A DNA stretch of 64,000 bases from Anaerolineales bacterium (GCA_020634615.1 JACKBI010000001.1:459261-523260); one strand, 5' to 3'. Positions 9,638 to 59,216 are shown, numbered from the stretch's first letter. Notes: a model not told the origin generated them from the sequence alone. Made by a program: numbers and translations.

Positions 9638-9785
9638 TACAGCCGGGCGTAAGCAAGGTGAGGGTTGCCCGCACGATGTTATGCCTTCGACTGGCTCAGG
9701 CCAGGACTGAACGGGTCTAACACGAAAACTCGCTAGGAAACGAGGGTTATTGCTGTCAATCCAGCATCCATTCGAGCATCCAACA

Positions 9786-9829: not shown

Positions 9830-9931
9830 GACGTATCTTGTCGTAAGGGTTGTGTACTCTCGACCCGTTTAGCATGGCAACTGTCTGGGTATTTACGCCC
9901 ACAAGTCGCTGACCAAGTTTACTGGCTTCAA

Positions 9932-10330: not shown

Positions 10331-10561
10331 CGACGTAACCGATTTTGTCCTGTCAAGCATGATTTGATAGAAATAAATCCCCTTTCGCTTTGCCGTTTCT
10401 CCTGCTTGGCGGTTTGCTTTTCCGTGCTGCCCGACTAAAGAGAGGGTAGGCGAATTGCTACTACTGGTGTTCGCCGAGACATGAACATTATCTTTGGAAT
10501 AACACTTCTGCCGAAGTTCTTCCAGCAACTTGTACGTAATGAGGACGGCCAAAAGGGAGAA

Positions 10562-11251
10562 ATGACCATGAGAAGAAAGATCATCGTCCTATGTACAGTA
10601 TTGTCAGTGGCCATAGGAAGCACGCTGATTGTCAAAGGTCTAGAGGAAATTGCTGGTGCGGCATCCACAGCCTCGGTGTCACCTAACGAGTGGCCTTCAT
10701 TTACGATGGTGTACGAGGATTGGAGGCTTGGTTCCAACGACGAGCAGCCCCAAGTGCAAGCCGTCAAGCTGATCTACCACGACAAACGGCATTGGAAGAC
10801 TGAGCTACTAGCTCACAACGATGCCGTGGACGTCGTTGGGACATGGGCAGAATATCATGGCGCGGAAATGCGTAGCTTTGACCCGCGTACCGGAGAGCTG
10901 CGTGTGGATCAACAGGATATTCCTGAAGATGCTGTGTATGTTCCCGAGCAGTGGCTCATTCCGGGTACCATTCCCAGGTTGCTCACGCAACAAAATGCTG
11001 AGCAACTCTCCGGATCGAGTGGAGGGCTGGCTGTATTGGTGCTTGAGGAGAATTTGCCGTGTCAGGCGCCTACAGAGGCAATGTTCCGCGCTGGTATACA
11101 GCCTTGTGATAGCGAATATCGAGTATCTCGACGCGAGATCACCTATCGCGAATCTGATTTCTTGCCGGTTGGGATTGTCGATAGCCTTGATGGCGTAGAG
11201 GTTCATAGGGTAACTGTAACCGAGTTGGTCATGAAGAACGGGGAGGAGTAA
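10562..11251 (+). CDS. hypothetical secreted or membrane-anchored protein
   Basis: GGGAG RBS. Signal-anchor MTMRRKIIVLCTVLSVAIGSTLIV. Confidence 0.45.
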   Translation: MTMRRKIIVLCTVLSVAIGSTLIVKGLEEIAGAASTASVSPNEWPSFTMVYEDWRLGSNDEQPQVQAVKLIYHDKRHWKTELLAHNDAVDVVGTWAEYHGAEMRSFDPRTGELRVDQQDIPEDAVYVPEQWLIPGTIPRLLTQQNAEQLSGSSGGLAVLVLEENLPCQAPTEAMFRAGIQPCDSEYRVSRREITYRESDFLPVGIVDSLDGVEVHRVTVTELVMKNGEE

Positions 11252-11257
11252 TGCTTA

Positions 11258-12193
11258 ATGTCTATGCTTACCCATACAGAAAGAGGGACACTACTGTGCG
11301 ATTGCGAAAGCGAAGCTGCACAATTGGATAACAATAACGTGGCTTACAGCTTCAACCGTTGGTGGCTATTGCTGATCGGCATCGGCTTGGCTGCCATCCT
11401 GTTGCTTGCATTGCCCGCTTCCCAGATGCCTGAGGTGGATGCATGGTCGTTGGTCAACAAAACGCCAGACGGGTCCGCCTTTCTAGTGGATGCTGACCAT
11501 GTGGGCTATGCACGAGCTACTGTCTATCGACGTGCGAATCCCGATCAACAGGAGCCTGCCGATTCATATCACAGTCCCGTTCTTCCTCTCTCTTCCGACA
11601 CCTTTCTTTCTGAAACCTGGGCTCGCGGCGGCAACACTGGCCAAACACGAGCTACCTTTCGGGATAAAGAATCGGGGCGTTTGATTTCAATGATGATCGA
11701 CACTGGGGAGAGTGTGTTCCTTTTTGATGAAACGACTGAAAACGGGATGTGGATACCGTCGTCAGGCGCCGCTGGAGCGGACGGGCAGCGGGGGCCATCG
11801 TCTGAAGTGCCGTTGGCTGAAGGAGAAAGGGAAGGATATGCGGTGACGGACGTGGTTATCTCTTCCTGGGGGCGGCCAGCCTGGGTGGTACAACACCGCT
11901 TTGATCCTGCCTCAATGGAGGCGGACCGGCCAGGACCCAATTTCCCTTCCGACCTGGATATTCAGGCCCTCGAAACCAGGTGGGTAGTAGACAAGGAGAC
12001 CGGGCAGTTTGTTCGAACAGAACAATGGGCCAATACGCCCGCCGGCTCCGTGCTTCTCGAACGTGTCGAAACCGAGCCGTTGGAGATCTTGCCGCTGGAT
12101 AGCCTGCCCGCTACATGGCTTGAAGCGCCTGAAGATGTGCCCCAGGCCACACTGCCGGCGCTGGTGGCGCCCACCATACGCAGCGCAAACTGA
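11258..12193 (+). CDS. hypothetical single-pass membrane protein
   Basis: TM helix WWLLLIGIGLAAILLLAL after a ~35 aa cytoplasmic N-terminus. Abuts the stop of the upstream gene. Confidence 0.45.
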   Translation: MSMLTHTERGTLLCDCESEAAQLDNNNVAYSFNRWWLLLIGIGLAAILLLALPASQMPEVDAWSLVNKTPDGSAFLVDADHVGYARATVYRRANPDQQEPADSYHSPVLPLSSDTFLSETWARGGNTGQTRATFRDKESGRLISMMIDTGESVFLFDETTENGMWIPSSGAAGADGQRGPSSEVPLAEGEREGYAVTDVVISSWGRPAWVVQHRFDPASMEADRPGPNFPSDLDIQALETRWVVDKETGQFVRTEQWANTPAGSVLLERVETEPLEILPLDSLPATWLEAPEDVPQATLPALVAPTIRSAN

Positions 12194-12241
12194 ATCAACC
12201 TCAAGTTGGTGATTGTATGCAGACCTATCTGAGGAGCAACG

Positions 12242-12496
12242 ATGCAAGAATCAACCAGACATATACGTGATTCGATAAATATAGAACAGCATTGGGCGTC
12301 TCTGACCAGGCGCGAGCGTGAGGTGTTGGCGCTGGTAGCGCAAGGCAAGAGCAATCGAGAAATTGCTCAGAAACTTAGCATTACTGACAAGACGGCGGGG
12401 CATCATGTTGGTCATATCTTGAGGAAGTTGGAAGTGTCGTCCAGAACCCAAGCCGCCTTATGGGCGATCTGGACAGGTACAGCAGAAATGGGATAG
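12242..12496 (+). CDS. LuxR/GerE-family HTH transcriptional regulator (stand-alone DNA-binding domain)
   Basis: LTRREREVLALVAQGKSNREIAQKLSITDKTAGHHVGHILRKLEVSSRTQA is the classic LuxR-type HTH signature. Confidence 0.6.
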   Translation: MQESTRHIRDSINIEQHWASLTRREREVLALVAQGKSNREIAQKLSITDKTAGHHVGHILRKLEVSSRTQAALWAIWTGTAEMG

Positions 12497-12623
12497 GGAC
12501 AAGTCCCTATAGAAATAGGGAATTCTCCCGATGACAGCCCAAAGCAGAAGTGCTACAATATTGGCATCGGTGGAAAGTCCTACGAGTAAATCACCAAATA
12601 TGGTCGTAAAAGGAGCATATACG

Positions 12624-13277
12624 ATGAAATCCACAAAGTTCGTTTCCCTCTTGGTCCTTCTGGCATTGCTGACCATGGGGATCCAACCAACGTTCGCCCA
12701 CGTAATCGGTCCTAACTCGCCAATTTCGCACATCCCCCTTGCAGACGAACCAATAGTCGATGAGCCCGTAATCAGCACCGTAGAAACCCAAGAGTGGGTG
12801 CAAGGACCAGGTGAACTGGGAGGCAGATACGTAACAGTTACAAAGGTGCTGTTGTCTCAGACCGCGACTGTGCGTGTGCCTCAACCAGGATTGCCTGCAA
12901 TCCAAACTAACGTACAACCTGATTGGGTTGTTTATTCCGGGGACTACGTTATGACAATGGAGAGGTGGCTGCGAAATTCCCCTGATTGGCTAGGTAGACC
13001 TTGGGTAGATGCAGGTGGCTCCACGGCCACCAACGTCACTGCACAGGAGATACGCGTCTCTGGAACCCACTGGTATGGCGGAAGTGGTTGCAATAGCCAA
13101 GGCCCCAACTTTAGTGGGACCAATTACAACACTACCTCAGTTTCGGCACAGACGGCTCAGAATTTGTTTGGTGGCAATCAGTATCACTGCGTTAAATCAG
13201 GTACACACCAGGCAAAGATCAACGGTTCTTGGCCATTCTGGGTAACAGGTCAAGAAGGGCCCACTGCTTATTGGTAG
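12624..13277 (+). CDS. secreted hypothetical protein
   Basis: AAAAGGAGC RBS. Signal peptide MKSTKFVSLLVLLALLTMGIQPTFA. Confidence 0.5.
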   Translation: MKSTKFVSLLVLLALLTMGIQPTFAHVIGPNSPISHIPLADEPIVDEPVISTVETQEWVQGPGELGGRYVTVTKVLLSQTATVRVPQPGLPAIQTNVQPDWVVYSGDYVMTMERWLRNSPDWLGRPWVDAGGSTATNVTAQEIRVSGTHWYGGSGCNSQGPNFSGTNYNTTSVSAQTAQNLFGGNQYHCVKSGTHQAKINGSWPFWVTGQEGPTAYW

Positions 13278-13435
13278 CCTGAATTCACGAAAGACAAGTC
13301 TCGGCACGATGCAGTAGATAAAGTAGAGACGCTACCAGGGTATCGAAACTCAGGTCGAATGGTTGTGCAACGTATTAGAAATCGCTGGACTTGCTTGCTC
13401 AAAGTTCTTACGTGAGTTTGGCAATGTGTCTTCGA

Positions 13436-13470
13436 GAATGTACCAGGCAGTTGCACCGCCTGGTACATTC
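13436..13470 (+). terminator. rho-independent-like terminator hairpin (GAATGTACCAGGC…GCCTGGTACATTC, then ATTT)
   Basis: Perfect 13-bp inverted repeat with a 9-nt loop, downstream of the 12624..13277 gene. Confidence 0.5.
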
Positions 13471-13548
13471 ATTTGGTAGGCTACTATCCGCAGAGTTTTG
13501 GCCGAGTGAACCTATTGTTGTGACAAAACTTCCTCAAGGTGTATATCA

Positions 13549-14757
13549 ATGGCGCTACTGTCACCTGACAAACTCTCTGGCAAGGTAGTTATCTTGTTTA
13601 TCCTGATAGCTTCTTCATTGGGGGTCGTATTGTTGGATGATTTGGTTCTCTCGAAAAACTGTACTGGCCCCTATGTTCTTTCTCGCAGAGATTGCATGTT
13701 ACTGCGTTCTCCGTTGATATGGCTCGCGCCCGACCGTACAGTTGTATTCGCAGAGCCCGAAATTCTGCCGACGCCGGTCATTCCTATAGGGGTCAATCCA
13801 ACAGAGATTAAGGAGAATAGCCCTGAGGAGCAAATGGAAGTTGTAGGAATAGCGCAAACGAATGAAGGAGGCTATGTCAGTCTTCAAGGAACCTGGTTGG
13901 AGCAAGGAAGCGGTGATAACGCACTCTACGTCGTCGAAAACGGAGCACCGTTTATCGGGCAGCTAGAACTTGGATCTTTTGAGTCCAAACCTCGCTCTTA
14001 TATCATCAATTGCTTGATCGACTTCATCCAGTTGCCATGCGGCCCGGCGGCGCCGCTCCTACAGTTCATCACACTAGATTATGGCCAAGTCGTCAAGATA
14101 CCCATCCATATCACTGGACTAGAACCTGGGCTGCACGACCTCACGGTGGTCTTTGATCAAGATTTGGGTGTAGATCGCGACAATCCGCAGGCCGAGGCAC
14201 GTTTGCTTTCCAAAGTAATGGCAATTCGTGCAAGCATAGCTGTTGGTCGTGATACAACCCCTATCGCCCGATCGTTCCAAAGCTTGCCCATACCGCTTCA
14301 TACAACTGGTCTGGATGGGCTGGCGGTGAGTACGAAGATAATGCCGTGGGATCGGTACGGTGGGATACAGCAGAAGACGTTTCTTCAAGCTGACCCTGGG
14401 CAGAAGATCACCCTGTATCTCCACCTCTCGAATAGTCAGCCCGTCCAGGTTGATTATGCACTGTCTGCGTTTTTGGATCATCAGCAGATCCCTCTGGTCC
14501 GTCGCGGCCAAGGCCATGTACCGCTGTATGTCTCCGCCAAGTCGCAAGCGCTGTATGTGATTCCTATTGAGTTTACGTCTCCTTCCCAGCCTGGTCATTA
14601 CGAATTCGTCGTTTACGGCGAGCCATTTCCCCAGGCGCGAATGGATCTGACGAGGCAAACGTTTGAAGGACAATTAGACTACGGCCTGGGGATCGACATG
14701 TGGTCATCGTCTAAGATCTATCTCGATGTGAACGACCACAAATTGCCGCGTGAGTAA
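13549..14757 (+). CDS. hypothetical membrane-anchored protein
   Basis: Long ORF with an N-terminal hydrophobic segment (VVILFILIASSLGVVLL). No recognisable family. Confidence 0.45.
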   Translation: MALLSPDKLSGKVVILFILIASSLGVVLLDDLVLSKNCTGPYVLSRRDCMLLRSPLIWLAPDRTVVFAEPEILPTPVIPIGVNPTEIKENSPEEQMEVVGIAQTNEGGYVSLQGTWLEQGSGDNALYVVENGAPFIGQLELGSFESKPRSYIINCLIDFIQLPCGPAAPLLQFITLDYGQVVKIPIHITGLEPGLHDLTVVFDQDLGVDRDNPQAEARLLSKVMAIRASIAVGRDTTPIARSFQSLPIPLHTTGLDGLAVSTKIMPWDRYGGIQQKTFLQADPGQKITLYLHLSNSQPVQVDYALSAFLDHQQIPLVRRGQGHVPLYVSAKSQALYVIPIEFTSPSQPGHYEFVVYGEPFPQARMDLTRQTFEGQLDYGLGIDMWSSSKIYLDVNDHKLPRE

Positions 14758-14763
14758 GAGGTT

Positions 14764-14915
14764 TTGACGCTCACTTTCCTATGATCGACAGCACGCGGGG
14801 ATCACATGGGCAGCAACCGCCGAAAATCACAAACAATCATGAAAAATCACAAAGTCTCATGAAATCTGGGGCGGTTTTGTGGTATGGTGGATGTGTCGCT
14901 GAGGAGTTTGGCGAT
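14764..14915. promoter_or_regulatory. conserved upstream element, copy C (direct repeats at 14825-14864, TGGTAT box, conserved leader)
   Basis: About 88% identity to copy B, including the non-coding remnant DAHFPMIDSTRGSHGQ. Precedes the AGGAGG RBS and ATG of 14950. Confidence 0.5.
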
Positions 14916-14949
14916 GAATCTATCAGCCTAATTTGCGAGGAGGATCAAG

Positions 14950-16395
14950 ATGGCAAAACGCGCGATTTCTGGACTGTTATTGGTCTTAATTGTAGTTGCC
15001 TCGGCCCGCTCGGTCGCGGCTTCTCCCGCAGCTCAACCGATACCACCACATTGGCAATTGTCCGGTTGGTATTCTCCTGGGTTCTGGGACAACACGGTTC
15101 CAAATGGCCAGTACGCTCCTACAGGGTATCGCCACGGCCATTGGTTCTACGATGGAGGTGGCCCTCCCGAGTACGTCTTTGGCAGCATTATGGACTGGAC
15201 TCAAGCCAGAGCAGATAACGTCAGATACTACAGCAACAATCTGCGGTTCTGGTGGTGTGATTTGGTCTACATGTATTACACCCATGACCACACTGACATG
15301 AGCGGGAAACTGAATGGAGTGGGAGCCGGGACCAATATGCCCAATCCTACGTTTGATCGAGATGATGACGCACCGGCGGATGGCAGATATGAGGAATACG
15401 AGGTCGTTAGTGTCAACCAATCGTTCCCTCAGAGTAGTCCATTCTTCTATTCGTTTGTCTCATATTACGAGAAGCAAGTTTCTGGACCCGGCTACCTTTT
15501 GGAGACTCCTGCGCTTTCTGCAAAGCCGTGGTGTATGAGCGAATACAACACCTGGCGCTATGATGATCATCCTCAAAGGCTGGACTACAATGACGTAGAA
15601 CTGGGAATGGTATTGGACAGAGATACTGATAGTGTTGCTCAAACACAAAGCAATTTGTATCCGATCAGTCCTGTTAGTGGGACTATCTCTGCTGGTCCAA
15701 TACAGTTGCATACAGTAACCGATTATAGAGTACCACGTATTCTGATTGGAGCCGCATATCCTGTGAGCACCAGAAGCGATCTCGATGCCTATGTCGACTT
15801 TGTGAAGTCTGGCTTGATGACACCGTTGCGTCACGAAGATGTAAACAACGTGCTGACAATTGTGACTTTCAATGAGCCCGTGTCTCGAAAAGTTCTTGAA
15901 GAAATACTCGGCCTATCAGACGCATCTCAAATCGAGATGATCAAGGCAGTGTATTCTGACGTGAATGATCCAAACTCGGCCACTAATACCTGGACCTTGG
16001 AAGCTCATCCCGAAGGAAATTCAAACTACACTGACGGCTTAAGTACACTGGCATCAAGCATCAGTTCTATGGAATTGATGCCAAACCGAGAGGAAGCTGC
16101 CGATACTCTTGGTGAGGTTCCATTGTCACCTCGCCTGGAGATGATTGGCTTTGTCGCGATCGAACTCTGGCTTCCCATCGAACAAATTGATTATCTTAAT
16201 GAACACGAGATGATCTTCCTGGCTGATCCCCTACCAACCTATGCTCGCATGCTCGTATCTCATACAGATGAGGCTGTTCGCATCCGATCGATGAATGATG
16301 ACCTATATCAGCTGCCAGACGGCATCGAAGCATTCATCATTGCTGATTTCACCGATCTCTATTCAGAGATGCAATTCCTTTCACAAGAAAGGTAG
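14950..16395 (+). CDS. secreted hypothetical protein (481 aa)
   Basis: GAGGAGG RBS. Signal peptide MAKRAISGLLLVLIVVASARSVAASPAAQP. Confidence 0.55.
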   Translation: MAKRAISGLLLVLIVVASARSVAASPAAQPIPPHWQLSGWYSPGFWDNTVPNGQYAPTGYRHGHWFYDGGGPPEYVFGSIMDWTQARADNVRYYSNNLRFWWCDLVYMYYTHDHTDMSGKLNGVGAGTNMPNPTFDRDDDAPADGRYEEYEVVSVNQSFPQSSPFFYSFVSYYEKQVSGPGYLLETPALSAKPWCMSEYNTWRYDDHPQRLDYNDVELGMVLDRDTDSVAQTQSNLYPISPVSGTISAGPIQLHTVTDYRVPRILIGAAYPVSTRSDLDAYVDFVKSGLMTPLRHEDVNNVLTIVTFNEPVSRKVLEEILGLSDASQIEMIKAVYSDVNDPNSATNTWTLEAHPEGNSNYTDGLSTLASSISSMELMPNREEAADTLGEVPLSPRLEMIGFVAIELWLPIEQIDYLNEHEMIFLADPLPTYARMLVSHTDEAVRIRSMNDDLYQLPDGIEAFIIADFTDLYSEMQFLSQER

Positions 16396-16445
16396 ATACT
16401 GCTTCAAATCGGCCTCGGCAGCTATACAGCCCGATACATATACAA

Positions 16446-16474
16446 GGAGCGAGGCCACAATGTGTGGCCTCGCT
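16446..16474 (+). terminator. palindromic hairpin GAGCGAGGCCACA-AT-TGTGGCCTCGCTC
   Basis: Perfect 13-bp inverted repeat about 50 bp after the stop of the 14950..16395 gene. Confidence 0.45.
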
Positions 16475-16698
16475 CGCGATCTTAAGGTAACAACTCCTAA
16501 GCCAGAGACTGCATACACCTATGAGAGAACCAAATGCAACTCTCGACATCATCGCAGTAACCGGCAAACTCCCCCTGATTCTGAGAACCTCGAACTACTT
16601 ACCTGGGCATTTGCCAGGCAAGACCGAGGCACAAAACTGGCGCGAATGATCTTCTTTGTCTTCCATGATCGCAACATCCTTGGTCTGGGAAAGGCGAT

Positions 16699-49939: not shown

Positions 49940-50627
49940 TTACGTGGCAGGCTGGAAGCTCGTCGCGTGGCGATTGCCGCCTGCCGCAGGAATTGCGTTG
50001 ACCACGAACTGACAACTGTTGTGGCCGTCGTGGATGCAGTTGCCCAATGTCACATCCGCTCCCAACACCTGGGAGAACGTGTCACGCTCCATCTCGCATA
50101 CGTCACGGTGCACAGAAGACAGGTCGTGATACGGGCAGTTGTACTCGTGCAGGATCATGACCCCGTTGGCATCCTCGATGTCGGCGCGGATGCCGCGGCG
50201 ATCCAGCAGGACCGAAAGTTCGGGAATCCTGTCGCCCAGAGCAACGCCCTTGATCTGACGGCTGTACTGCATCGCCAGTTTGTCGCCCACCCGGCTCAGC
50301 AGGTAGCGCAGCTTGGCCGTGCCCTCGGTCTCCAGCAGCTCGTGGATCAGGTCCAGCGCCAGCTCATCGGAATAGCAGGCAAACAGGCTCTGCGACCGTT
50401 CGGTGAGCTTGTAGACGTTGCGTGGGCGGCCAACGCCCTGTCGCTCTCTGGTCATGATAACCAGGCCTTCGGCCGACAGGCTGGCCAGTTGCTGGCACAG
50501 CGGTCGCGGTGACGCCCAACATGTCTTCCAGGTCTTTGATGCCAGCGGTTGTGTTGCGCAGGAGGTATTCGAGAATTTGCCCAGCGGGGGTTGAACTGTT
50601 TTGAATGCCCTGAGTCGCCATGGTCAC
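49940..50627 (-). pseudogene. sufR: SufR-like ArsR-family HTH regulator, frameshifted
   Basis: N-terminal HTH fragment (…AGQILEYLLRNTTAGIKDLEDMLGVTATAV…) and C-terminal fragment (IMTRERQGVGRPRNVYKLTE… with CPYHD…C…C Cys ligands) lie in different frames. Confidence 0.5.
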
Positions 50628-50667
50628 TTACTCTTTCAATAAATCGTCGTTCCGGCTAACAAGTGGA

Positions 50668-50715
50668 AGTATATGCCAGCAAAGTAATTTTGTCAAATTA
50701 ATCTGCGAAAATTAC
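50668..50715 (-). promoter_or_regulatory. near-consensus sigma70-type promoter for the sufR operon (-35 TTGACA, 17-bp spacer, -10 TATACT on the minus strand), overlapped by the inverted repeat GTAATTTT-N16-AAAATTAC
   Basis: Hexamers and spacing read from the sequence. The inverted repeat at 50684-50715 overlaps the -35. Confidence 0.45.
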
Positions 50716-51181: not shown

Positions 51182-51210
51182 TTGACCGCGTCTATCTCCG
51201 GTGGTATAGT
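51182..51210 (+). promoter_or_regulatory. sigma70-type promoter (TTGACC, 17-bp spacer, TATAGT) for the gene starting at 51245
   Basis: Hexamers and spacing seen directly. GGAG RBS 7 nt before the ATG. Confidence 0.45.
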
Positions 51211-51244
51211 AGTTCTTCGCACTACCATACCGTCTGGAGTCAAC

Positions 51245-52396
51245 ATGCCCGAAAACACCGCGATGGACACAATGCGTGATGAATACGAAATTGACACCTT
51301 GATCGAGCAGGCGACGCCGATATTGCGCCGCTACATCCTGACGCTGGAACAGGAAAACGCGCGCCTGCGGCAGGAACTGATGGATGCGCAAGGCACGGCG
51401 GCACGGCGGGAGCGCGCCGCGTTGGCCCGCGAAAGCCGCGAGCCGTCGGCCAACACCAGTGTGCCCACGCCGCGTTACGGCGACGATGTGATGGTGATCA
51501 CCGTCACTGCTCAGGGGCTGTGCAAGCGCACACCAGTCAACGAATACTCGGCACAGCGGCGGGGCGGCGTGGGCGTCTTCGACATCCAGACCAGCCGTGA
51601 TGACCAGGTGGCGCATGTGCTGGTCGCGCGCGAGGCCGCTGCCCTGCTGGTATTGAGCAGCCGCGGGCGCGCGTTTCGCGTCCCGGTCGAGACGTTGCCG
51701 CTGACAGAGATCCGCGGCCGTGGCGCCTCATTGCCCGAGCGTCTGATGTTCACCGGCGGTGAGACCATTGGCGCGCTGTTGGCGCTGGACGAGGAGCAGG
51801 ATGATCGCCCCAACGTACTGATCGCCACAGCCAGCGGCTTGCTGCGCTCGTTCCATCGCAACTACGTCGGTCCCCGCCTGCAACCCGGCACGTTGTTGGT
51901 TGAACCGGCCCGGGGCGGCTCACCGGCCGCGGCAACCCTGTCCCATGGCGGCGGCGACGTGCTGGTCGCGCTGCGCAGCGGCGTCGCCTACCGCTTCGCC
52001 GAGCAGCTGATTCGCCGGGAGGGGGTGCGCGGCATCCAGGTCCGCCCGGACGACGCAGTGGTCGGTCTGGCCGTCCTCGCGGCCGATGGCAGCGATGCCA
52101 TCTTCCTGGCCAGCGGCGAAGGACTGGGCACCCGCCGCGGCGATGATACTTTCTCCGCCAACAAATCGCCGGGCGGGCAAGGCAAGGTCATCATGAAGAC
52201 CGACGCACTGGCCGGACTTGCTGCCGTCACAGAGCAGAGTGAAGTGTTCTGCGTCAGCGGCCTTGGCAAGATCATCCGTTTTGCCGTGGCTGAAGTGCCG
52301 CCCAAGGCCGGCAATGTTCAAGGTGTCAACATCATGGATTGCCGCGGCGACCAACTGACCGCCATCACTGTCAGCACGCCACCTGCCCAGGATTGA
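51245..52396 (+). CDS. stand-alone DNA gyrase A C-terminal-domain (beta-pinwheel) like protein with an N-terminal coiled coil
   Basis: GyrA-box-like QRRGGVGV, then repeated blades (…GRGASLPE…, …PGGQGKVIMKT…, …GNVQGVNIM…). ~80 aa charged helical N-terminus (…LTLEQENARLRQELMDAQ…). Confidence 0.5.
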   Translation: MPENTAMDTMRDEYEIDTLIEQATPILRRYILTLEQENARLRQELMDAQGTAARRERAALARESREPSANTSVPTPRYGDDVMVITVTAQGLCKRTPVNEYSAQRRGGVGVFDIQTSRDDQVAHVLVAREAAALLVLSSRGRAFRVPVETLPLTEIRGRGASLPERLMFTGGETIGALLALDEEQDDRPNVLIATASGLLRSFHRNYVGPRLQPGTLLVEPARGGSPAAATLSHGGGDVLVALRSGVAYRFAEQLIRREGVRGIQVRPDDAVVGLAVLAADGSDAIFLASGEGLGTRRGDDTFSANKSPGGQGKVIMKTDALAGLAAVTEQSEVFCVSGLGKIIRFAVAEVPPKAGNVQGVNIMDCRGDQLTAITVSTPPAQD

Positions 52397-53196
52397 TGCC
52401 CATGTCTGCTACACCACACAGCGCGTTGGTACGTCCACCTGACCTCTCGTTTGTCGATGCGTTGGGACAGGTCGAGGGCGCACCCGCGATCGATTTCGAA
52501 TTGGCGTTGGCGCAACACCGCCTGTATGTGGCGGCGCTGGAGGCAGCGGGTCTTTCGGTTACGGTATTGCCGCCCGCAGAGGGCTTGCCCGATGCTTGCT
52601 TTGTGCAGGATGTCGCGCTGGTGCTGCCGGAACTGGTCTTGCTGGCCCGTCCGGCCATGCCGTCGCGGCAGGCGGAGATTGCCGCGATTCGAGCGTATTT
52701 GCCTCCCGACCGGCCGGTGGCAGCGGTCGAGGAGCCGGGCACGCTGGAGTGGGGCGACGTGTTGCGCATCGGCAACACGCTGTATGTTGGTCTGTCGGAG
52801 CGCACCAATGCGGCCGGTGCAGAGCAAGTGCGCGCTGCCGTGACGCCGCTGGGGATGGACGTTGAAACGGTTCCCGTGCCGGCCGGCTTGCATCTGCTCA
52901 GCGGGCTAAACTACCTGGGACGCTCGCCGCGCAACGCCGACGGCCCCGGGGTCGTTCTGGCGTGGCCGGCATACCGCGACCTGCCGATACTGGCCGGGCT
53001 GGATGTGATCGTCGTGCCGGAGAGCGAAGGCCCGGCCGCCAACGTACTGGCCCTTGGTGAAACGGTGCTCGTTCCTGCAGTGTACCCGCGCACCGCGGCC
53101 GAGCTTTGGCATCGCGGCTGGCGCGTGTTGTCGGTGCCCATCAGCGAGTTTGCCAAAGCGGATGGCGGCCTGACCTGTCTCAGCCTGCTGATGTGA
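52396..53196 (+). CDS. N(G),N(G)-dimethylarginine dimethylaminohydrolase / amidinotransferase-superfamily protein
   Basis: Start overlaps the upstream stop (TGATG). DDAH-like N-terminus …ALVRPPDLSFVDAL… and catalytic-Cys-type C-terminus …DGGLTCLSLLM. Confidence 0.6.
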   Translation: MPMSATPHSALVRPPDLSFVDALGQVEGAPAIDFELALAQHRLYVAALEAAGLSVTVLPPAEGLPDACFVQDVALVLPELVLLARPAMPSRQAEIAAIRAYLPPDRPVAAVEEPGTLEWGDVLRIGNTLYVGLSERTNAAGAEQVRAAVTPLGMDVETVPVPAGLHLLSGLNYLGRSPRNADGPGVVLAWPAYRDLPILAGLDVIVVPESEGPAANVLALGETVLVPAVYPRTAAELWHRGWRVLSVPISEFAKADGGLTCLSLLM

Positions 53197-53302: not shown

Positions 53303-53944
53303 ATGCCGCGCGATCCATTGATCGATCGCAGCCAGGCCGCGCGTCTGGCCTTTTTTGAACAGGAACGGGATCTGTTTCACGATCTGGTGACCCACGGGCA
53401 GTCGCCAGAGGCGCTGCTGATCGCGTGCAGCGATTCGCGCATCGTCGGCGCCGGGCTGCTGGGGACACTGCCAGGTGAGGTCTTCGTGGTGCGGACGGTA
53501 GGCGCTGTTGTGCCGCCCTATGGCATCGGCCAACGATCGGTAGGCGCGGCGCTGGAGTTTGCGCTCGACAAACTGCGCGTGCGTCATGTGATCGTCTGCG
53601 GCCACACCGACTGCGGCGCGATCGAGGCGCTGGACGCGACCGTGGACATGCAGAAAACGCCGAACCTGGCACTGTGGCTGGAGAATCTGCGGCCGGCCAA
53701 GACCTCGGTCGACGCGCACCAGACATTTGCTGACCCCTATGCGCGCCAGCTTGCCATCCTCCAACAGAGCGTGCTGCTGCAGATGCGCAATCTCGAAACT
53801 TATCCGGTCGTACAATACGCCCTGAAGAATCAGACTGTCAGCCTCCACGGCTGGGTATACAGCCTGGAAAGCGGGCGCTTGAGCTACTACGATTCGGACG
53901 CAGGACGGTTCGTCGTGGAAGACGCTCAAGACAGGCAACCGTAA
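53303..53944 (+). CDS. can: beta-class carbonic anhydrase
   Basis: CSDSRIV … HTDCGAI zinc-ligand motifs. ~213 aa. Confidence 0.75.
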   Translation: MPRDPLIDRSQAARLAFFEQERDLFHDLVTHGQSPEALLIACSDSRIVGAGLLGTLPGEVFVVRTVGAVVPPYGIGQRSVGAALEFALDKLRVRHVIVCGHTDCGAIEALDATVDMQKTPNLALWLENLRPAKTSVDAHQTFADPYARQLAILQQSVLLQMRNLETYPVVQYALKNQTVSLHGWVYSLESGRLSYYDSDAGRFVVEDAQDRQP

Positions 53945-54414: not shown

Positions 54415-54657
54415 ATGGATCGCTTGGGATCAGCGCACCTTTTTCCTACCACGTCCCGCCGCCAGATGGCGCAGAACGAGGTGCTGCTGGCTGCCCGGGT
54501 GACATGTTGGGCTGGCGCGCGCTGCCAGTGTCGGGGCGGCGCCATTGGCGGACGGACGTTTAGTCGCAATGCAGTCGTCTATGGGAACGGCGAGGCCAAG
54601 GCAATCAGCTCCTGGCCTCGCTTTTTCGATGCCAGGGAGCAAGAGGAGTTTTCATGA
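54415..54657 (+). CDS. small Cys-containing ORF (80 aa) translationally coupled (ATGA) to the giant gene; possible leader peptide
   Basis: High-GC coding-like codon usage. The stop overlaps the ATG at 54654. Contains CWAGARCQC. Confidence 0.25.
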   Translation: MDRLGSAHLFPTTSRRQMAQNEVLLAARVTCWAGARCQCRGGAIGGRTFSRNAVVYGNGEAKAISSWPRFFDAREQEEFS

Positions 54658-57600
54658 ACCGCGTTAAACAGGCAATCTTCAAGACATGTCCGAAATCGGG
54701 TAAGGTCGTGGGCCTGCGCCGGCCAGAAGGTTGGCGCCGGATATTCATTCCGCTGATTGGTTTTGCGGCGCTGGTGTGGTTTCTCGTGCGAGTGGTTCCC
54801 AAACCGAGCCGGGCTGCCTATCCCTGCCAGCGGGTTGCGATGCCACTGGCGTCCGGGTTCGTTCTCTGGCTTGCAGGCATGGCCGGGGCAACCGTTGCGT
54901 TTGGAAAGGCGCGCAATCGCTTCCAGCAGGCGCGGTTCGCGACCGGCGCTCTGGCAGTGGTGGTCGCTGTCGTGGGTGTTGGTTGGGGCGTATTGACGTT
55001 GCAGGCGCCGGCAGCGGCTGAAACGGTTGCGTATACGGCCCATCCGGCCAACCAACCCATCGGTGTTGCCAAGGGATTGGCGCCCGGTCGTGTGGTCTGG
55101 GTCCATGACCCTGATCTGACCGACTGGGCCGGACCGGGAACCGGCGAGCGGTGGTGGCAGCACGTCAGCCAGTCGGTTGCGAATCAGGTGATGTCGCAGG
55201 CGCTGCGCAGCTATGCCAACACTACGTCCGACGCCGCGGCCTGGGATGCAATCTTCCGCAGTTACAACGGCGGCGCTCCCTACCAATCCAACCAGAAAAT
55301 CGCCATCAAGATCAATCTGACGACTTCGAACGCTGGCTCAGGCACTGCCAACATCGACAGCAACTACAACTGGGTTCCAGGCGGCGGTCTGAACTACGAC
55401 GCGATCGGTGAGTCGCCGCAGTTGATGCACGCGCTGCTGGATCAACTCGTGAACAAGGCCGGTGTGCCACAGGCCAACATCACTATCGGTGATCCGACCG
55501 GTCTGTGGATCAACGAGTTGTACGTGCCGCTGCACAACGATTTCCCCAACGTGGTTTACCTGGACAACTATGGTCAGCAGGGGCGAACTCGGGCCTCGTT
55601 CAGCTCAGTTCCGATGTACTGGAGCACTTCTGAGGCCAACGGCAAGACGCAGGACTATGTGCCGAACTATTTTGCCCAGGCTGACTATATGATCAATCTG
55701 GCGATCCTGAAGACCCACGATCGCAACGGCATTACTCTGACCGCCAAGAATCACTTCGGCTCGATGCTGCGAACGCCGGTGGCGCAACTGCGCGGCGTGA
55801 GCGGCAACTGGCTGGAGTTGCACCACTTGCTGCCCAGCGCGCCCTCGGCCAGTGAACCCAAGGTGCCGACCATGGGCAACTACCGGCCTCTGGTGGATCT
55901 CAACGGCAACCGAAACCTGGGCGGCAAGACTCTTCTCTATATGGTAGATGGCATCTTTGGCGGCAAGAACTGGAACTCCACGCCGTACACCTGGGCGATG
56001 ACTCCGTTCAACGGCGACTGGCCGTCCAGCCTCTTCCTTTCCATGGACCAGGTGGCCATCGACTCGGTGGGTTTCGACTTCCTGAGCCAGCAATGGCCTG
56101 ATCAGGCGCTGGTCAATGAGGGTGTGCAGGACTATCTGCACGAGATGGCGCTGGCCAATAACCCACCTTCGGGCACATGTTACGATCCGGAACACGATCA
56201 GACGTGCCAGCAGAGCATGGGCGTCCACGAACACTGGAACAACCCGATTGACAAGCAGTATACCCGCAATCTCGGCACGGGCAACGGCATCGAATTGATG
56301 TACATCAATCCGTTGACACCGACGCCTACACCAACGGCAGTGCCGCCGACTGCCACCAATACACCGGTGCCACCCACGGCCACCAACACAGCAGTGCCGC
56401 CGACCAACACGCCAGTGCCACCGACGGCCACCAACACAGCCGTGCCGCCAACCAATACACCGGTGCCGCCGACGGCCACCAACACAGCGGTGCCGCCGAC
56501 CAACACGCCAGTGCCACCGACAGCTACCAACACAGCAGTGCCGCCGACCAACACGCCAGTGCCACCAACGGCTACCAACACAGCAGTGCCGCCAACCAAT
56601 ACACCGGTGCCACCGACGGCCACCAACACAGCAGTGCCGCCGACCAATACGCCGGTGCCGCCGACGAGCACACCGGTGCCACCCACCGCGACGCCGACAC
56701 AATCGGTCTGCGGCGTACAGACCGTGCTGTTCGTTGGTTCCACCAATCCGCTGCCGGCCCGCGATCAGGTCCTGGTGAATCGTCTTACCGGGCAGGGCTA
56801 CGCGGTGGTTGTGCGCAGTGAGAGCCAGGCGGTGTCGTCCGATGCCAGCGGCAAGGCGCTGGTGATCATCTCGGATTCGGTCACTTCTGGCAATGTCAAC
56901 ATCAAGTTCCGCGATGTGGCGGTGCCTGTGATGACCTGGGAACCCGCTTTGCTGGACGACATGATGATGACCGGGACAGCCTACGGAACCAACAGCGGCG
57001 ATGCATCGAACCAGACGCAACTGGTCGTTAACAGCGGCCATCCGCTGGCAGCCGGCCTCAGTGGAACGGTGACGACCAGCAACGCCGCGCAGATGTACTT
57101 CTGGGGCGTACCCTCGGCCAGCGCTGATATCATCGCGACGATCGTCGGTCAGTCGGGACATGCGGCAATCTTTGCCTACGAGCCGGGCGACGCGATGATC
57201 GGCTTGACGGCGCCGGCCCGCCGGCTTGGCTATTACAATGGCTACGGCGCCGACTTTACCGCCGCCGGCTGGGGGCTGTGGGACGCCGCGGTGACATGGA
57301 TGGTTAACTGCCAGGCGCCGACCGCTACTCCGATCCCGACTAATACACCTGTGCCGCCGACAGCGACTCCGACCTACACGCCGACGCGGACACCAACCGC
57401 CACGCCGGTGCCGCCCACTGCGACGCCGATCCCGACCAATACACCGGTGCCGCCGACAGCCACTCCGACCTACACGCCAACGCGGACACCAACCAATACG
57501 CCGGTGCCGCCCACTGCGACGCCGATCCCGACCAATACGCCAGTGCCACCGACAGCGACTCCGACCTACACGCCGACGCGGACACCAACCGCCACGCCGG

Positions 57601-59216
57601 TGCCGCCAACTGCCACGCCGCTTCCAACTAACACCCCGGTGCCGCCAACAGCGACTCCGCTTCCAACCAACACACCAGTTCCGCCAACAGCGACTCCGGT
57701 GACCGTTGATGGTGTCGTGCTGCGCACCGATCTTGCGCCGGTAATCGACGGAACAATCGACCCGGTCTGGAGCGGCGCCAACCAGTATCCCATCCAGAAC
57801 GTGATCATCGGCAGTGCTGTGCCGGCGGCTGATCTTTCAGCTTCCTACCGGGCGCTATACGACGCCACCAACCTCTACCTGCTGGTGACCGTCAGCGATG
57901 AGACACTGATCAACGACAGCGGAACTTCCTGGTATTTCGATGACGGCGTCGAGCTATTCGTGGACGGCGATCACAGCCAGGGCGCCAGCTATGATGCCAA
58001 CGACTTCCAGTTTGGTGTGCGCTGGAGCGATGGCAACACGATCATTGCCGGCGCGAACTCAGCGCCGGTGCCCACTGGCGCGGTGGCCAGCCTGGCTTCT
58101 GCGCCCGGCGGTTACCGGCTCGAGATGCGGCTGCCTCTGTCGGGGCTGTCCATCAACCCGACGGCTGGCTACCAGTTTGGACTGGAAGTGCAGGTCAACG
58201 ATGACGATGACGGTGGAGATCGGGACACCAAGATCTCCTGGCACAGCCTGGATGACAACACCTGGATGTATCCAAGCCAGTTCGGAAGCGTAGCGCTCAG
58301 CAGCAGTACGGTACCAACACCGGTGCCGCCAACTGCCACCAACACACCAGTGCCGCCGACAGCAACACCTGTGCCGCCGACAGCGACGCCAGTCCCGCCG
58401 ACAGCGACGCCAGTGCCGCCGACACCCACACCGACTACACCTCCTCCCACAACCAACATGATGTACGTCAGTTCGACCACGGCTGGCAATGTTGGCGGGG
58501 TGGCGTTCAACGACGAGGATATCCTGGCATACAACAAGACGACCGGAGCATGGAGCATGCTGTGGGACGGCTCAGACGTTGGCATCACTGCCGATGTGAT
58601 CGCTTACTCGGTGCGGACTGACAACTCCATTCTGATGAGCTTCGCCAGCGCCATCACTGTATCCGGCCTCGGTACCGTGGATGACTCCGACATCGTGCGC
58701 TTCGTGCCCACGTCGTTGGGAACAAACACGGCTGGCAGCTTTGAGTTCTACTTCGACGGTTCCGACGTTGGACTGTCCAACAGCAGTGAGGACATCGACG
58801 CCATCACCTTCACGGCTGACGGTAAGCTGGTCATCAGCACGGCCGGATCGTACAGCGTGCCGGGTGTGTCCGGCGCCGATGAGGACTTGCTGGTCTTCAC
58901 TGCTTCCCAGCTTGGCCAGACTACCAGCGGAACCTGGGCGATGTACTTCGACGGATCTGACGTTGGCCTGAGCCAGTCATCGTCTGAGGATGTCAACGGC
59001 GCCTGGTTGGACGTGACCACTGGCAAGCTCTATCTGACGACCGTCGGAGCTTTTTCGGTGACCGGCGTGAGCGGTGACGGCGCAGATATCTTCATCTGCA
59101 CGCCGACATCCCTGGGATCGAACACCGCCTGCACGTACGGCCCTGGTCTCTATTGGGACGGTTCGGCCAACGGCTTCGCCGGCGAGATAGTTGATGGGTT
59201 TACCATCGTCCCATAA
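54654..59216 (+). CDS. giant cell-surface multidomain protein (1520 aa): N-terminal 3-TM anchor, DUF362-like domain, PT-repeat linker, class-I-glutamine-amidotransferase/ThuA-like domain, PT linker, CBM9-like domain, PT linker, C-terminal YFDGSDVGL-repeat domain
   Basis: N-terminal 550 aa is ~65% identical to the product of 59301..62375. Motifs AIKINLTT, AILKTHDRNGITLTAKNHFGS. CBM9-like block (…LYLLVTVSDETL…FDDGVELFVDGDH…). 4 internal repeats of (F/Y)xDGSDVGL. Confidence 0.65.
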   Translation: MNRVKQAIFKTCPKSGKVVGLRRPEGWRRIFIPLIGFAALVWFLVRVVPKPSRAAYPCQRVAMPLASGFVLWLAGMAGATVAFGKARNRFQQARFATGALAVVVAVVGVGWGVLTLQAPAAAETVAYTAHPANQPIGVAKGLAPGRVVWVHDPDLTDWAGPGTGERWWQHVSQSVANQVMSQALRSYANTTSDAAAWDAIFRSYNGGAPYQSNQKIAIKINLTTSNAGSGTANIDSNYNWVPGGGLNYDAIGESPQLMHALLDQLVNKAGVPQANITIGDPTGLWINELYVPLHNDFPNVVYLDNYGQQGRTRASFSSVPMYWSTSEANGKTQDYVPNYFAQADYMINLAILKTHDRNGITLTAKNHFGSMLRTPVAQLRGVSGNWLELHHLLPSAPSASEPKVPTMGNYRPLVDLNGNRNLGGKTLLYMVDGIFGGKNWNSTPYTWAMTPFNGDWPSSLFLSMDQVAIDSVGFDFLSQQWPDQALVNEGVQDYLHEMALANNPPSGTCYDPEHDQTCQQSMGVHEHWNNPIDKQYTRNLGTGNGIELMYINPLTPTPTPTAVPPTATNTPVPPTATNTAVPPTNTPVPPTATNTAVPPTNTPVPPTATNTAVPPTNTPVPPTATNTAVPPTNTPVPPTATNTAVPPTNTPVPPTATNTAVPPTNTPVPPTSTPVPPTATPTQSVCGVQTVLFVGSTNPLPARDQVLVNRLTGQGYAVVVRSESQAVSSDASGKALVIISDSVTSGNVNIKFRDVAVPVMTWEPALLDDMMMTGTAYGTNSGDASNQTQLVVNSGHPLAAGLSGTVTTSNAAQMYFWGVPSASADIIATIVGQSGHAAIFAYEPGDAMIGLTAPARRLGYYNGYGADFTAAGWGLWDAAVTWMVNCQAPTATPIPTNTPVPPTATPTYTPTRTPTATPVPPTATPIPTNTPVPPTATPTYTPTRTPTNTPVPPTATPIPTNTPVPPTATPTYTPTRTPTATPVPPTATPLPTNTPVPPTATPLPTNTPVPPTATPVTVDGVVLRTDLAPVIDGTIDPVWSGANQYPIQNVIIGSAVPAADLSASYRALYDATNLYLLVTVSDETLINDSGTSWYFDDGVELFVDGDHSQGASYDANDFQFGVRWSDGNTIIAGANSAPVPTGAVASLASAPGGYRLEMRLPLSGLSINPTAGYQFGLEVQVNDDDDGGDRDTKISWHSLDDNTWMYPSQFGSVALSSSTVPTPVPPTATNTPVPPTATPVPPTATPVPPTATPVPPTPTPTTPPPTTNMMYVSSTTAGNVGGVAFNDEDILAYNKTTGAWSMLWDGSDVGITADVIAYSVRTDNSILMSFASAITVSGLGTVDDSDIVRFVPTSLGTNTAGSFEFYFDGSDVGLSNSSEDIDAITFTADGKLVISTAGSYSVPGVSGADEDLLVFTASQLGQTTSGTWAMYFDGSDVGLSQSSSEDVNGAWLDVTTGKLYLTTVGAFSVTGVSGDGADIFICTPTSLGSNTACTYGPGLYWDGSANGFAGEIVDGFTIVP
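56344..56690 (+). repeat. in-frame 48-bp tandem repeat (about 6.5 units) encoding TNTPVPPTATNTAVPP
   Basis: Near-identical DNA units seen directly inside the giant gene. Confidence 0.6.
57321..57700 (+). repeat. in-frame 96-bp tandem repeat (about 3.5 units) encoding [32 protein letters not shown]
   Basis: Seen directly. A second Pro/Thr linker of the giant gene. Confidence 0.55.

What the first reader, a model, noticed from the sequence alone, without database searches (positions are those of the whole stretch)
51245..52396. Stand-alone GyrA C-terminal-domain (beta-pinwheel) homologue with a coiled-coil N-terminus
The protein has no topoisomerase catalytic domains but contains a GyrA-box-like QRRGGVGV followed by several ~45-aa blades with G-x-G/K-V-I motifs, as in the DNA-wrapping CTD of GyrA/ParC. 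About 80 N-terminal residues are a charged helix. A free DNA-wrapping pinwheel could act as a nucleoid-associated protein or a topoisomerase modulator. Its stop overlaps the DDAH-like gene.
Basis: partly seen in the sequence, partly recalled or inferred. Interest (0 to 1): 0.55.

Follow-up and report, generated by a model that had tools for sequence, protein, structure and literature searches.

The report
Free-standing gyrase-tail pinwheel protein family
This gene encodes only the DNA-wrapping "tail" of gyrase subunit A, behind a short, probably pairing, helix; it belongs to a conserved, apparently undescribed protein family of Anaerolineae (Chloroflexota), and in this branch it always sits directly in front of a dimethylarginine-hydrolase-type enzyme gene.

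Summary
Window 51245-52396 (+) encodes a 383-aa protein that matches PF03989 (E 5e-22). Its AlphaFold model (pLDDT 87) has an N-terminal helix, a disordered linker and a six-bladed beta-pinwheel. The pinwheel superposes on solved GyrA C-terminal domains (CTDs), best on the Borrelia one (TM 0.87, rmsd 2.9 A).

It is neither a gyrA fragment nor a pseudogene:
- 183 non-redundant relatives, all from Chloroflexota (where classified further, Anaerolineae orders such as Caldilineales, Anaerolineales and Ardenticatenales), are free-standing ORFs of 330-445 aa.
- dN/dS among close orthologues is 0.06-0.14.
- The gene has its own promoter-like site and ribosome-binding site.

The family sits apart from real gyrase CTDs: 27% median identity to them, against 39% among GyrA CTDs. 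Its signatures are a GyrA box QRRGG[M/V/I]G, an invariant blade-5 motif NKSPGxxGK, and a conserved N-terminal PxVxxYIxxLE zipper-like helix that shows no similarity to GyrA.

In the window's clade a true DDAH-fold gene follows in 18 of 18 distinct loci, with overlapping or near-abutting stop and start codons, while the other neighbours change.

Most likely function (inferred, not shown): a probably dimeric DNA-bending or DNA-wrapping protein, analogous to Borrelia Gac.

Not resolved: whether the host GyrA keeps its own CTD, and why the DDAH gene is linked. I rate it a new variant of a known kind, of moderate interest.

The parts
51182..51210 (+). Promoter-like site: TTGACC, 17-nt spacer, TATAGT, with TG upstream of the -10
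   Evidence: 10 of 12 consensus matches; 4 sites found in the region against 0.8 expected. It lies 35 nt upstream of the ATG. This is a consensus match only.
51236..51239 (+). Shine-Dalgarno-like GGAG, 5 nt before the start codon
   Evidence: Sequence read.
51245..52396 (+). CDS of the free-standing GyrA-CTD-like protein (383 aa plus stop)
   Evidence: An identical protein (P0001) occurs on 49 contigs. dN/dS is 0.06-0.14.
51317..51436 (+). Long N-terminal helix (residues 25-64). It carries the family-wide motif P25-x-[LV]-x-x-Y30-I31-x-x-L34-E35-x-E37-[N/L]38-x-x-L41 and leucine-zipper-like heptads.
   Evidence: No similarity to GyrA or to any Pfam family.
51437..51487 (+). Low-confidence, probably flexible linker (residues 65-81)
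   Evidence: pLDDT about 43-57. Length varies across the alignment.
51488..51637 (+). Pinwheel blade 1 (residues 82-131), including the GyrA box
51554..51574 (+). GyrA-box variant QRRGGVG (residues 104-110)
   Evidence: Family consensus is Q-R-R-G-G-[M/V/I]-G in 183 members, and position 6 is not K or R among the residues tallied. The canonical consensus is Q(R/K)RGG(R/K)G (PMC8216471).
51638..51808 (+). Pinwheel blade 2 (residues 132-188). Ala180 occupies the position of E. coli GyrA Pro636.
   Evidence: The role of P636 is from PMC2896533.
51809..51952 (+). Pinwheel blade 3 (residues 189-236)
51953..52093 (+). Pinwheel blade 4 (residues 237-283). Its loop is 5 residues shorter than in E. coli or S. 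Typhi GyrA.
52094..52237 (+). Pinwheel blade 5 (residues 284-331)
52151..52186 (+). Family-signature motif FSANKSPGGQGK in blade 5 (F-x-A-N-K-S-P-G-x-x-G-K)
   Evidence: G310, G313 and K314 are present in 183 of 183 members.
52238..52375 (+). Pinwheel blade 6 (residues 332-377). Only 6 residues follow it, so there is no acidic C-terminal tail.
52402..53196 (+). Downstream DDAH-fold gene (264 aa), conserved partner in the window's clade. The start lies 5 nt after the pinwheel gene's stop, and AGGA at 52389-52392 could serve as its ribosome-binding site.

Best explanation
The gene encodes a separately encoded, diverged paralogue of the DNA-wrapping C-terminal domain of gyrase subunit A.

**Shown:**
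- It has a closed six-bladed beta-pinwheel with a retained GyrA-box clasp motif.
- Conserved basic residues occur in five of the six blades' strands and loops, with a mostly basic position in blade 3.
- A strongly conserved zipper-like helix and a flexible linker precede the pinwheel.
- It has no ATPase or DNA-cleavage domain.
- It is an independent gene under purifying selection, in a family seen only in Chloroflexota, mainly Anaerolineae.

**Inferred mechanism:**
- The N-terminal helix pairs two chains.
- Each pinwheel binds DNA around its rim and bends it, so the dimer bends, bridges or constrains writhe in duplex DNA.
- It cannot change linking number by itself.
- It would thus act as a nucleoid-associated or regulatory DNA-architectural protein, as Gac (the free GyrA CTD of Borrelia burgdorferi) does.

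In the window's clade it is co-transcribed and probably translationally coupled with a DDAH-type hydrolase. The reason is unknown.
For: **Identity and fold**
- PF03989 E 5.3e-22.
- The GyrA equivalog HMM aligns at 144 bits, against 34-57 bits for the ParC models.
- A family profile hits solved GyrA CTDs at E 1e-49 to 1e-33, and the best ParC CTD only at 1e-22.
- AF2 models of the window protein and of a distant family member have pLDDT 87 and 88. Both show a helix plus six blades.
- Foldseek ranks GyrA CTDs and full-length gyrase chains first (E about 1e-19 to 1e-24, probability 1.00). The closest superposition is 1suu, TM 0.87 and rmsd 2.9 A.

**Conserved DNA-facing elements**
- The Q-R-R-G-G-x-G motif is almost invariant in 183 members.
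- Invariant or near-invariant basic residues: K94/R95, R105/R106, R142/R145, R157/R159, R244/R250, R298, K307, K314, K318, K342/R345, K354, R367.

**Independent, functional gene**
- All 86 loci carry ORFs of 330-445 aa and none is fused.
- dN/dS is 0.06-0.14.
- The gene has its own promoter-like site and SD.

**Precedent**
- Free Gac wraps DNA into 180-220 degree bends, partly replaces HU, and represses ospC (PMC10127594).

**Dimerisation**
- Heptad a/d pattern L27, I31, L34, N38, L41, L45.
- P25, Y30, I31, L34 and E35 are as conserved as the GyrA box.
Against:
- The pinwheel is nearly neutral: net charge +1 in the window protein and a family median of +2. E. coli GyrA CTD is +5 and diverse GyrA CTDs have a median of +9.
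- By the pairwise alignment, the positions of the S. Typhi arginines mapped (R612, R716, R766, R817; PMC7210945) are not arginines here (R716 falls in a 5-residue deletion), and R667 aligns to L211 with R210 adjacent; basic residues lie 1-2 positions away in the blade 2, 5 and 6 loops.
- GyrA-box position 6 is hydrophobic, not basic.
- The tilt-inducing proline (E. coli P636) is Ala in the window protein.
- Dimerisation is inferred from sequence only.
- The conserved DDAH partner is not explained by a pure nucleoid-protein role.
Confidence: 0.5

Rival explanations
1. Topoisomerase accessory or subunit. The pinwheel works in trans with gyrase or topo IV. It could supply the wrapping domain to a CTD-less GyrA or ParC (a split gyrase), or it could modulate supercoiling by competing for wrap sites or docking onto the enzyme through its conserved N-terminal helix.
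For: - The GyrA box, the gyrase-specific signature, is retained across the whole family.
- The protein is positionally equivalent to GyrA from its last pre-CTD helix onward: HMM alignments run from GyrA residue about 440.
- The N-terminal motif is highly conserved, which fits a fixed partner.
- I could not obtain a GyrA from any family-bearing genome to show that it keeps its own CTD.
Against: - The family is an outlier among gyrase CTDs. Median identity to GyrA CTDs is 27% (maximum 34%), against 39% among GyrA CTDs from different 50% clusters. Profile scores drop from at least 290 bits to about 200 bits.
- The N-terminal 76 residues alone have no detectable similarity to the GyrA coiled coil: HMM scores are at most 5, no better than against reversed sequences.
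- No topoisomerase gene lies next to the gene in the clade-1 loci or in the recurrent clade-2 neighbourhood.
- From general knowledge, gyrA (TIGR01063) is a near-universal single-copy bacterial gene that includes its CTD.
Confidence: 0.2
2. Non-DNA scaffold or partner of the DDAH-type enzyme. The pinwheel and its helix serve protein-protein interaction: they regulate, localise or present substrate to the co-translated hydrolase. DNA binding has been lost or is secondary.
For: - The DDAH-fold gene lies directly downstream in 18 of 18 distinct clade-1 pairs, with an ATGA or TGATG overlap or a 5-19 nt gap.
- The two genes' identities to the window copies correlate at r = 0.90, while all other neighbours differ.
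- The pinwheel is near-neutral.
- ParC CTDs are known protein-binding modules: the MukB complex 4mn4 is among the structural hits.
Against: - The larger clade 2 of the family (35-48% identity) has no DDAH gene within 6 kb, yet keeps the same motifs and fold.
- A DDAH homologue at 50% identity lacks the partner.
- The DDAH-like protein keeps all residues that P. aeruginosa DDAH uses for catalysis and for holding a free amino acid (the residue roles are from general knowledge). It therefore looks like an ordinary small-molecule enzyme.
- GyrA-box and rim basic residues remain invariant.
Confidence: 0.15
3. Artefact: a gyrA gene fragment, a pseudogene or a mis-assembly.
For: JGI annotation calls many family members 'DNA gyrase subunit A'.
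Against: - The identical protein occurs on 49 contigs from several sources.
- There are 183 non-redundant full-length relatives of consistent length.
- dN/dS is 0.06-0.14.
- The family has its own N-terminal module, and neither the ORF list nor the gene calls of the identical loci show a gyrA-like ORF upstream.
Confidence: 0.01

Closest known systems
Gac, the naturally synthesised GyrA C-terminal domain of Borrelia burgdorferi (PDB 1suu)
   Same: It is a free six-bladed GyrA-type beta-pinwheel of about 35 kDa without a topoisomerase core. It is the best structural superposition of both models (TM 0.86-0.87, rmsd 2.9 A). It has no acidic C-tail. Gac bends and wraps DNA and acts as a nucleoid-associated protein and repressor (PMC10127594).
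   Different: Gac is translated from an internal start inside gyrA, so by construction it has the sequence of that gyrase's own CTD. The window protein is a separate gene with its own expression signals. It is only 20% identical to 1suu and 27% (median) to any GyrA CTD. It also has an extra conserved N-terminal helix and, in its clade, a DDAH partner gene.
Canonical GyrA C-terminal domain (PF03989; e.g. E. coli 1zi0, Xanthomonas 3l6v, S. Typhi 5ztj, M. tuberculosis 3uc1)
   Same: Homologous over all six blades (E 1e-22 to 1e-28 with the single sequence). The GyrA box sits in blade 1, and each blade has the degenerate G-x-x-[KR] and G-x-x-G loop motifs.
   Different: It is not attached to the breakage-reunion domain. 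GyrA-box position 6 is hydrophobic. Ala replaces the tilt-inducing P636. The blade-4 loop is 5 residues shorter. It lacks the acidic tail and has a lower net positive charge.
ParC (topo IV) C-terminal domain
   Same: The same beta-pinwheel superfamily. ParC CTDs can also act as protein-binding modules (MukB).
   Different: ParC CTDs lack the GyrA box, are open C-shaped and have a variable number of blades (PMC8216471). ParC models score much lower here (34-57 bits against 144), and E. coli ParC structures fit poorly (TM 0.3-0.5).
HU/IHF-type nucleoid-associated proteins (functional analogy only)
   Same: Small dimeric DNA-bending proteins. Gac can partly substitute for HU (PMC10127594).
   Different: Unrelated fold. 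No evidence here of abundance or of DNA binding.

Membership tests
GyrA C-terminal domain superfamily (PF03989 beta-pinwheel) | Significant match to the DNA_gyraseA_C repeat model | tested here: met
   E 5.3e-22, 77.4 bits against a cut-off of 27, in 4 stretches.
GyrA C-terminal domain superfamily (PF03989 beta-pinwheel) | Six-bladed closed beta-pinwheel fold | tested here: met
   In silico only. The AF2 model has pLDDT 87 with six three-to-four-strand units. The top Foldseek hits are all GyrA CTDs or full-length gyrase chains at probability 1.00. A distant family member gives the same result.
Canonical gyrase CTD (as part of DNA gyrase) | GyrA box Q(R/K)RGG(R/K)G in blade 1 | tested here: inconclusive
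   QRRGGVG matches 6 of 7 positions. Position 6 is M, V, I, T or L in 179 of 183 family members, with no K or R among the residues tallied. The consensus is from PMC8216471.
Canonical gyrase CTD (as part of DNA gyrase) | Covalent continuity with the GyrA breakage-reunion domain (PF00521) | tested here: not met
   No PF00521 match. The score against the GyrA equivalog HMM is 144 bits against a cut-off of 902. All 86 loci have ORFs of at most 445 aa.
Canonical gyrase CTD (as part of DNA gyrase) | Beta-strand-bearing proline of blade 2 (E. coli P636) that gives the spiral, chirally wrapping shape | tested here: not met
   Ala180 aligns with P636. Pro occupies this position in 81 of 183 family members. 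The feature is defined in PMC2896533. It is also absent from the B. burgdorferi and M. tuberculosis gyrases.
Canonical gyrase CTD (as part of DNA gyrase) | Chiral DNA wrapping that supports negative supercoiling | not testable with these tools
   Needs a topoisomerase-I read-out or supercoiling assay.
Gac-type free CTD (B. burgdorferi) | Protein consists of the CTD alone, free of the topoisomerase core | tested here: met
   An extra 81-residue N-terminal module is present.
Gac-type free CTD (B. burgdorferi) | Made from an internal promoter, RBS and start codon within the gyrA ORF | tested here: not met
   It is a separate gene. The upstream neighbour is a divergent SufR-like gene, with about 600 nt of spacer by the gene calls. 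The gene has its own promoter-like site and SD.
Gac-type free CTD (B. burgdorferi) | DNA bending or wrapping and HU-like activity | not testable with these tools
   Reported for Gac in PMC10127594.
ParC (topo IV) CTD | No GyrA box; open C-shaped ring; variable number of blades | tested here: not met
   A GyrA box is present and six blades are predicted. ParC HMMs score 14-57 bits against 144 for GyrA. E. coli ParC CTD fits at TM 0.33-0.49.

The most novel reading that the evidence does not exclude
The pinwheel and the DDAH-type enzyme form a functional two-gene module, in which guanidino-group chemistry is coupled to a DNA-wrapping protein. For example, the enzyme might modify arginines of the pinwheel (GyrA box or rim) to switch DNA binding. 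Alternatively, the pinwheel might sense or control a methylarginine- or arginine-derived signal. The strict, translationally coupled pairing amid otherwise changing neighbours does not exclude this. The DDAH protein's intact free-amino-acid binding site makes it unlikely.
Probability: 0.08. Interest if true: 0.8.

Novelty: new variant of a known kind. Interest (0 to 1): 0.5.

Why it matters
The only documented natural free GyrA tail is Borrelia Gac, which is made from inside gyrA. Its authors state that it is unknown whether anything similar exists elsewhere (PMC10127594).

A current review proposes that gyrase arose when an independent DNA-wrapping pinwheel protein fused to a type IIA topoisomerase core (PMC8216471).

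This finding supplies a separately encoded, selectively maintained pinwheel family with a preserved GyrA box in a whole bacterial class. It gives a natural system to test three questions:
- What does a gyrase tail do on its own?
- How do the GyrA box and blade loops work outside gyrase?
- Can such proteins act as nucleoid organisers or supercoiling modulators in filamentous Chloroflexota?

The invariant link to a DDAH-type enzyme in one clade is an additional unexplained lead.

Tried and rejected
1. **Is the N-terminal helix the GyrA coiled-coil return helix?** The HMM alignments that start at GyrA residue about 440-477 suggested so. An HMM of residues 1-76 alone scores at most 5 bits on 166 full-length GyrAs, no better than on reversed sequences. 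Pfam finds nothing. Homology is not supported.

2. **Finding a GyrA from a family-bearing lineage to test the split-gyrase idea.**
   - The best full-length GyrA hit (P0131) is from Abyssubacteria or Hydrogenedentota.
   - The window has no second PF03989-like ORF.
   - A literature search gave nothing useful.
   - The question remains unresolved.

3. **Two copies in one MAG (L071, L081).** The two contigs are 96% identical over 12.9 kb. This is strain redundancy, not paralogy.

4. **Defence-system membership.** No PADLOC hit for either gene.

5. **Functional clues from clade-2 neighbours.** The recurrent neighbours are an SLT transglycosylase, an unknown 467-aa protein and pyruvate kinase. 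None relates to DNA topology.

6. **Net charge as a test for DNA binding.** The result is ambiguous: the family median is +2, which overlaps the low tail of real CTDs (E. coli +5).

7. **Flat versus spiral shape.** Both models fit the flat Borrelia CTD best. The clade-2 model does so although, from the alignment text, that protein appears to have a Pro at the P636 position. This may therefore be a modelling default.

9. **Literature.** Searches for stand-alone pinwheel proteins found only the Gac and gyrase papers.

Full report
**What is at the coordinates**

The ORF 51245-52396 (+) encodes 383 aa. ATG 51245 is the start:
- every homologue begins at the aligned Met;
- GGAG lies 5 nt upstream;
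- a TTGACC-17-TATAGT site with an extended -10 lies at 51182-51210, inside the alternative TTG-extended ORF.

Pfam gives one family, PF03989 DNA_gyraseA_C (E 5.3e-22, four stretches), and no topoisomerase core. The NCBIfam GyrA equivalog models align to residues 16-370 at 137-144 bits. That is far below their cut-offs of about 900, as expected for a C-terminal-only protein. ParC models score only 14-57 bits.

**Fold**

An AlphaFold2 model built on 30 family sequences has pLDDT 87.2 and pTM 0.78. It shows:
- short helices at 5-13 and 16-21;
- a long helix at 25-64;
- a low-confidence linker at 65-81;
- six units of three to four strands from 82 to 377.

The six units align with each other, sharing the G-x-x-x-[RK] strand and the G-x-x-G loop.

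Foldseek against the PDB ranks only GyrA CTDs or full-length gyrase chains first (E about 1e-19 to 1e-24). The tightest superposition is on the Borrelia burgdorferi CTD 1suu (TM 0.87, rmsd 2.9 A). The fit is looser on the spiral E. coli, Xanthomonas and M. tuberculosis CTDs (rmsd 5-6.5 A) and poor on E. coli ParC.

A second model, of a 38%-identical family member (P0084), gives the same picture.

**A real, free-standing gene family**

- The identical protein is on 49 contigs, and 94 clusters at 90% identity were found, nearly all of 345-392 aa.
- A scan of one genome per species found relatives in 174 stretches. The best 80 are all Chloroflexota MAGs. Those classified below phylum are mostly Anaerolineae lineages: Caldilineales, Anaerolineales, Ardenticatenaceae, Promineifilaceae, Thermoflexales.
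- In all 86 loci the maximal ORF is 330-445 aa and is never fused to a core domain. The window holds no second copy.
- dN/dS between close orthologues is 0.06-0.14.
- An apparent double copy in one MAG is strain redundancy.

Against 1.84 billion representatives, family members score 290-620 bits. The scores then drop to about 200 bits, where ordinary GyrAs begin. The best-scoring GyrAs come from unrelated phyla.

Pinwheel-to-pinwheel identity is 27% (median; maximum 34%) between the family and GyrA CTDs. Among GyrA CTDs of different 50% clusters it is 39%. The family is thus a distinct, diverged branch of the GyrA-CTD superfamily, not a displaced gyrase tail.

**Family signatures, over 183 non-redundant members**

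1. GyrA box Q-R-R-G-G-[M/V/I]-G. The published consensus is Q(R/K)RGG(R/K)G (PMC8216471). Position 6 is not basic in any tallied member.
2. An invariant blade-5 motif F-x-A-N-K-S-P-G-x-x-G-K, at the blade where M. tuberculosis gyrase has its second GyrA box (PMC8216471).
3. An N-terminal motif P25-x-[LV]-x-x-Y30-I31-x-x-L34-E35-x-E37-[N/L]38-x-x-L41, as conserved as the GyrA box.

In the window protein the a/d heptad positions are L27, I31, L34, N38, L41, L45 and A48, which is Leu in most long-form (clade-1) members. This is a short leucine-zipper-like pattern with Asn at an 'a' position.

This helix has no detectable similarity to the GyrA coiled coil or to any Pfam family. The apparent alignment from GyrA residue 440 is only envelope extension.

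Ala180 sits at the position of E. coli P636, the proline that tilts blade 1 and promotes chiral wrapping (PMC2896533). Pro occupies it in 44% of the family. There is no acidic C-tail.

**Context**

Upstream lies a divergent SufR-like gene and a suf operon. Downstream lie a DDAH-fold gene and a beta-carbonic anhydrase.

The DDAH-like gene follows directly in every locus whose pinwheel is at least 57% identical (20 of 20), and in three more loci reached from DDAH homologues of 49-64% identity. This makes 18 distinct pairs.

In these pairs the junction is an ATGA or TGATG overlap, or a gap of 5-19 nt. The identities of the two genes to the window copies correlate at r = 0.90. The other neighbours differ between loci: SufR, a Zn-peptidase, a methyltransferase, an acetyltransferase or an M36 peptidase upstream; carbonic anhydrase or dodecin downstream.

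The partner is a true DDAH homologue (E 4.5e-42 to P. aeruginosa DDAH 1h70). Its catalytic Cys, His and Glu and its substrate-holding Asp and Arg residues are conserved (the residue roles are from general knowledge).

The larger second clade (35-48% identity, shorter N-terminus beginning M..ERPDL) has no DDAH gene within 6 kb. Within it, a subset of 22 loci, mostly Caldilineaceae, Caldilinea and Litorilinea MAGs, shares an SLT transglycosylase upstream and an unknown protein and pyruvate kinase downstream. One DDAH homologue at 50% identity lacks the pinwheel partner.

**How it most likely works**

*Shown:* the fold, the retained GyrA box and blade basic residues, the conserved N-terminal helix, gene independence, purifying selection and the operon structure.

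*Inferred:*
- The helix dimerises the protein.
- Each pinwheel bends DNA around its rim.
- The dimer acts as a DNA-architectural or regulatory protein that can constrain, but not create, supercoils. This is what is known for Gac, which wraps DNA by 180-220 degrees, partly replaces HU and represses ospC (PMC10127594).

I put this at about 0.5.

*Caveats:*
- The pinwheel is almost neutral (+1; family median +2), against +5 for E. coli and a median of +9 for diverse GyrA CTDs.
- The positions of the S. Typhi arginines I mapped (R612, R716, R766, R817) are not arginines by alignment, R716 falling in a 5-residue deletion, and R667 aligns next to R210.

*Rivals:*
- A trans-acting topoisomerase subunit or modulator (0.2). 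I could not retrieve a host GyrA to exclude a CTD-less enzyme.
- A protein-interaction partner of the DDAH-type enzyme (0.15).
- An artefact (0.01).

**Comparison and novelty**

It works like, and folds like, Gac and gyrase CTDs. It is a member of the PF03989 superfamily. It fails two defining features of a gyrase CTD (attachment to the core and the P636 proline) and one of Gac (internal expression from gyrA). It is not ParC-like.

Searches of the open literature found no description of separately encoded GyrA-CTD families. Databases label the members 'hypothetical protein' or, wrongly, 'DNA gyrase subunit A'.

I therefore rate it a new variant of a known kind, with interest 0.5. It is a natural test case for what a gyrase tail does alone, and for the proposal that gyrase arose by fusion of such a protein to a topoisomerase core (PMC8216471). 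It also carries an unexplained, strictly conserved link to a DDAH-type enzyme.

Noticed in passing
window 8000-16500: A low-GC island (GC 0.50, against 0.60-0.65 elsewhere). It holds six same-strand ORFs of 248-481 aa (8834-9637, 10481-11251, 11258-12193, 12531-13277, 13549-14757, 14950-16395). None has a Pfam, PHROGs or PADLOC hit at E <= 1e-3. It looks like a horizontally acquired cassette of unknown function.
   Followed up: partly
window 52402-53196 and L004, L007-L020, L087-L091: A bona fide DDAH-fold gene is translationally coupled to the pinwheel gene in every clade-1 locus while all other neighbours change. There is no known connection between methylarginine or guanidino metabolism and DNA-wrapping proteins.
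   Followed up: partly
window 54654-59216 and downstream; L001-L003: Giant secreted-looking proteins carry DUF362 and CBM9 domains joined by long Pro/Thr-rich tandem linkers (TNTPVPPTA repeats). The repeat number differs between metagenome assemblies of the same locus: 1440 against 1520 aa, and the region is called differently in one assembly (L001, where only an 846-aa CBM9 gene is called).
   Followed up: no
window 53331-53357 (+): A terminator-like GC-rich hairpin followed by a T-run lies inside the 5' end of the beta-carbonic-anhydrase ORF (53303-53944), about 135 nt after the DDAH-like stop. It may be chance, or an attenuator between the two-gene module and the carbonic anhydrase gene. 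The carbonic anhydrase is conserved only in the closest relatives.
   Followed up: no
window 49940-50700 (-): A SufR-like regulator (TIGR02702, E 1e-14) heads a sufBCD-type operon on the minus strand. A strong promoter-like site (TTGACA-17-TATACT, 11 of 12 matches) is at 50696-50668. It is divergent from the pinwheel gene across an intergenic region of about 600 nt.
   Followed up: no
whole window: No tRNA or tmRNA gene and no Rfam family at gathering threshold in 64 kb.
   Followed up: yes
proteins P0133, P0138, P0186, P0191, P0214 and others (listed): Many metagenomic 'proteins' of 370-440 aa are GyrA CTDs that start at the internal Met of the conserved GyrA motif MRLxRLTGLE. Most are probably truncated gene calls. 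They would also be what Gac-like internal-start products look like, so they may deserve a systematic check.
   Followed up: no
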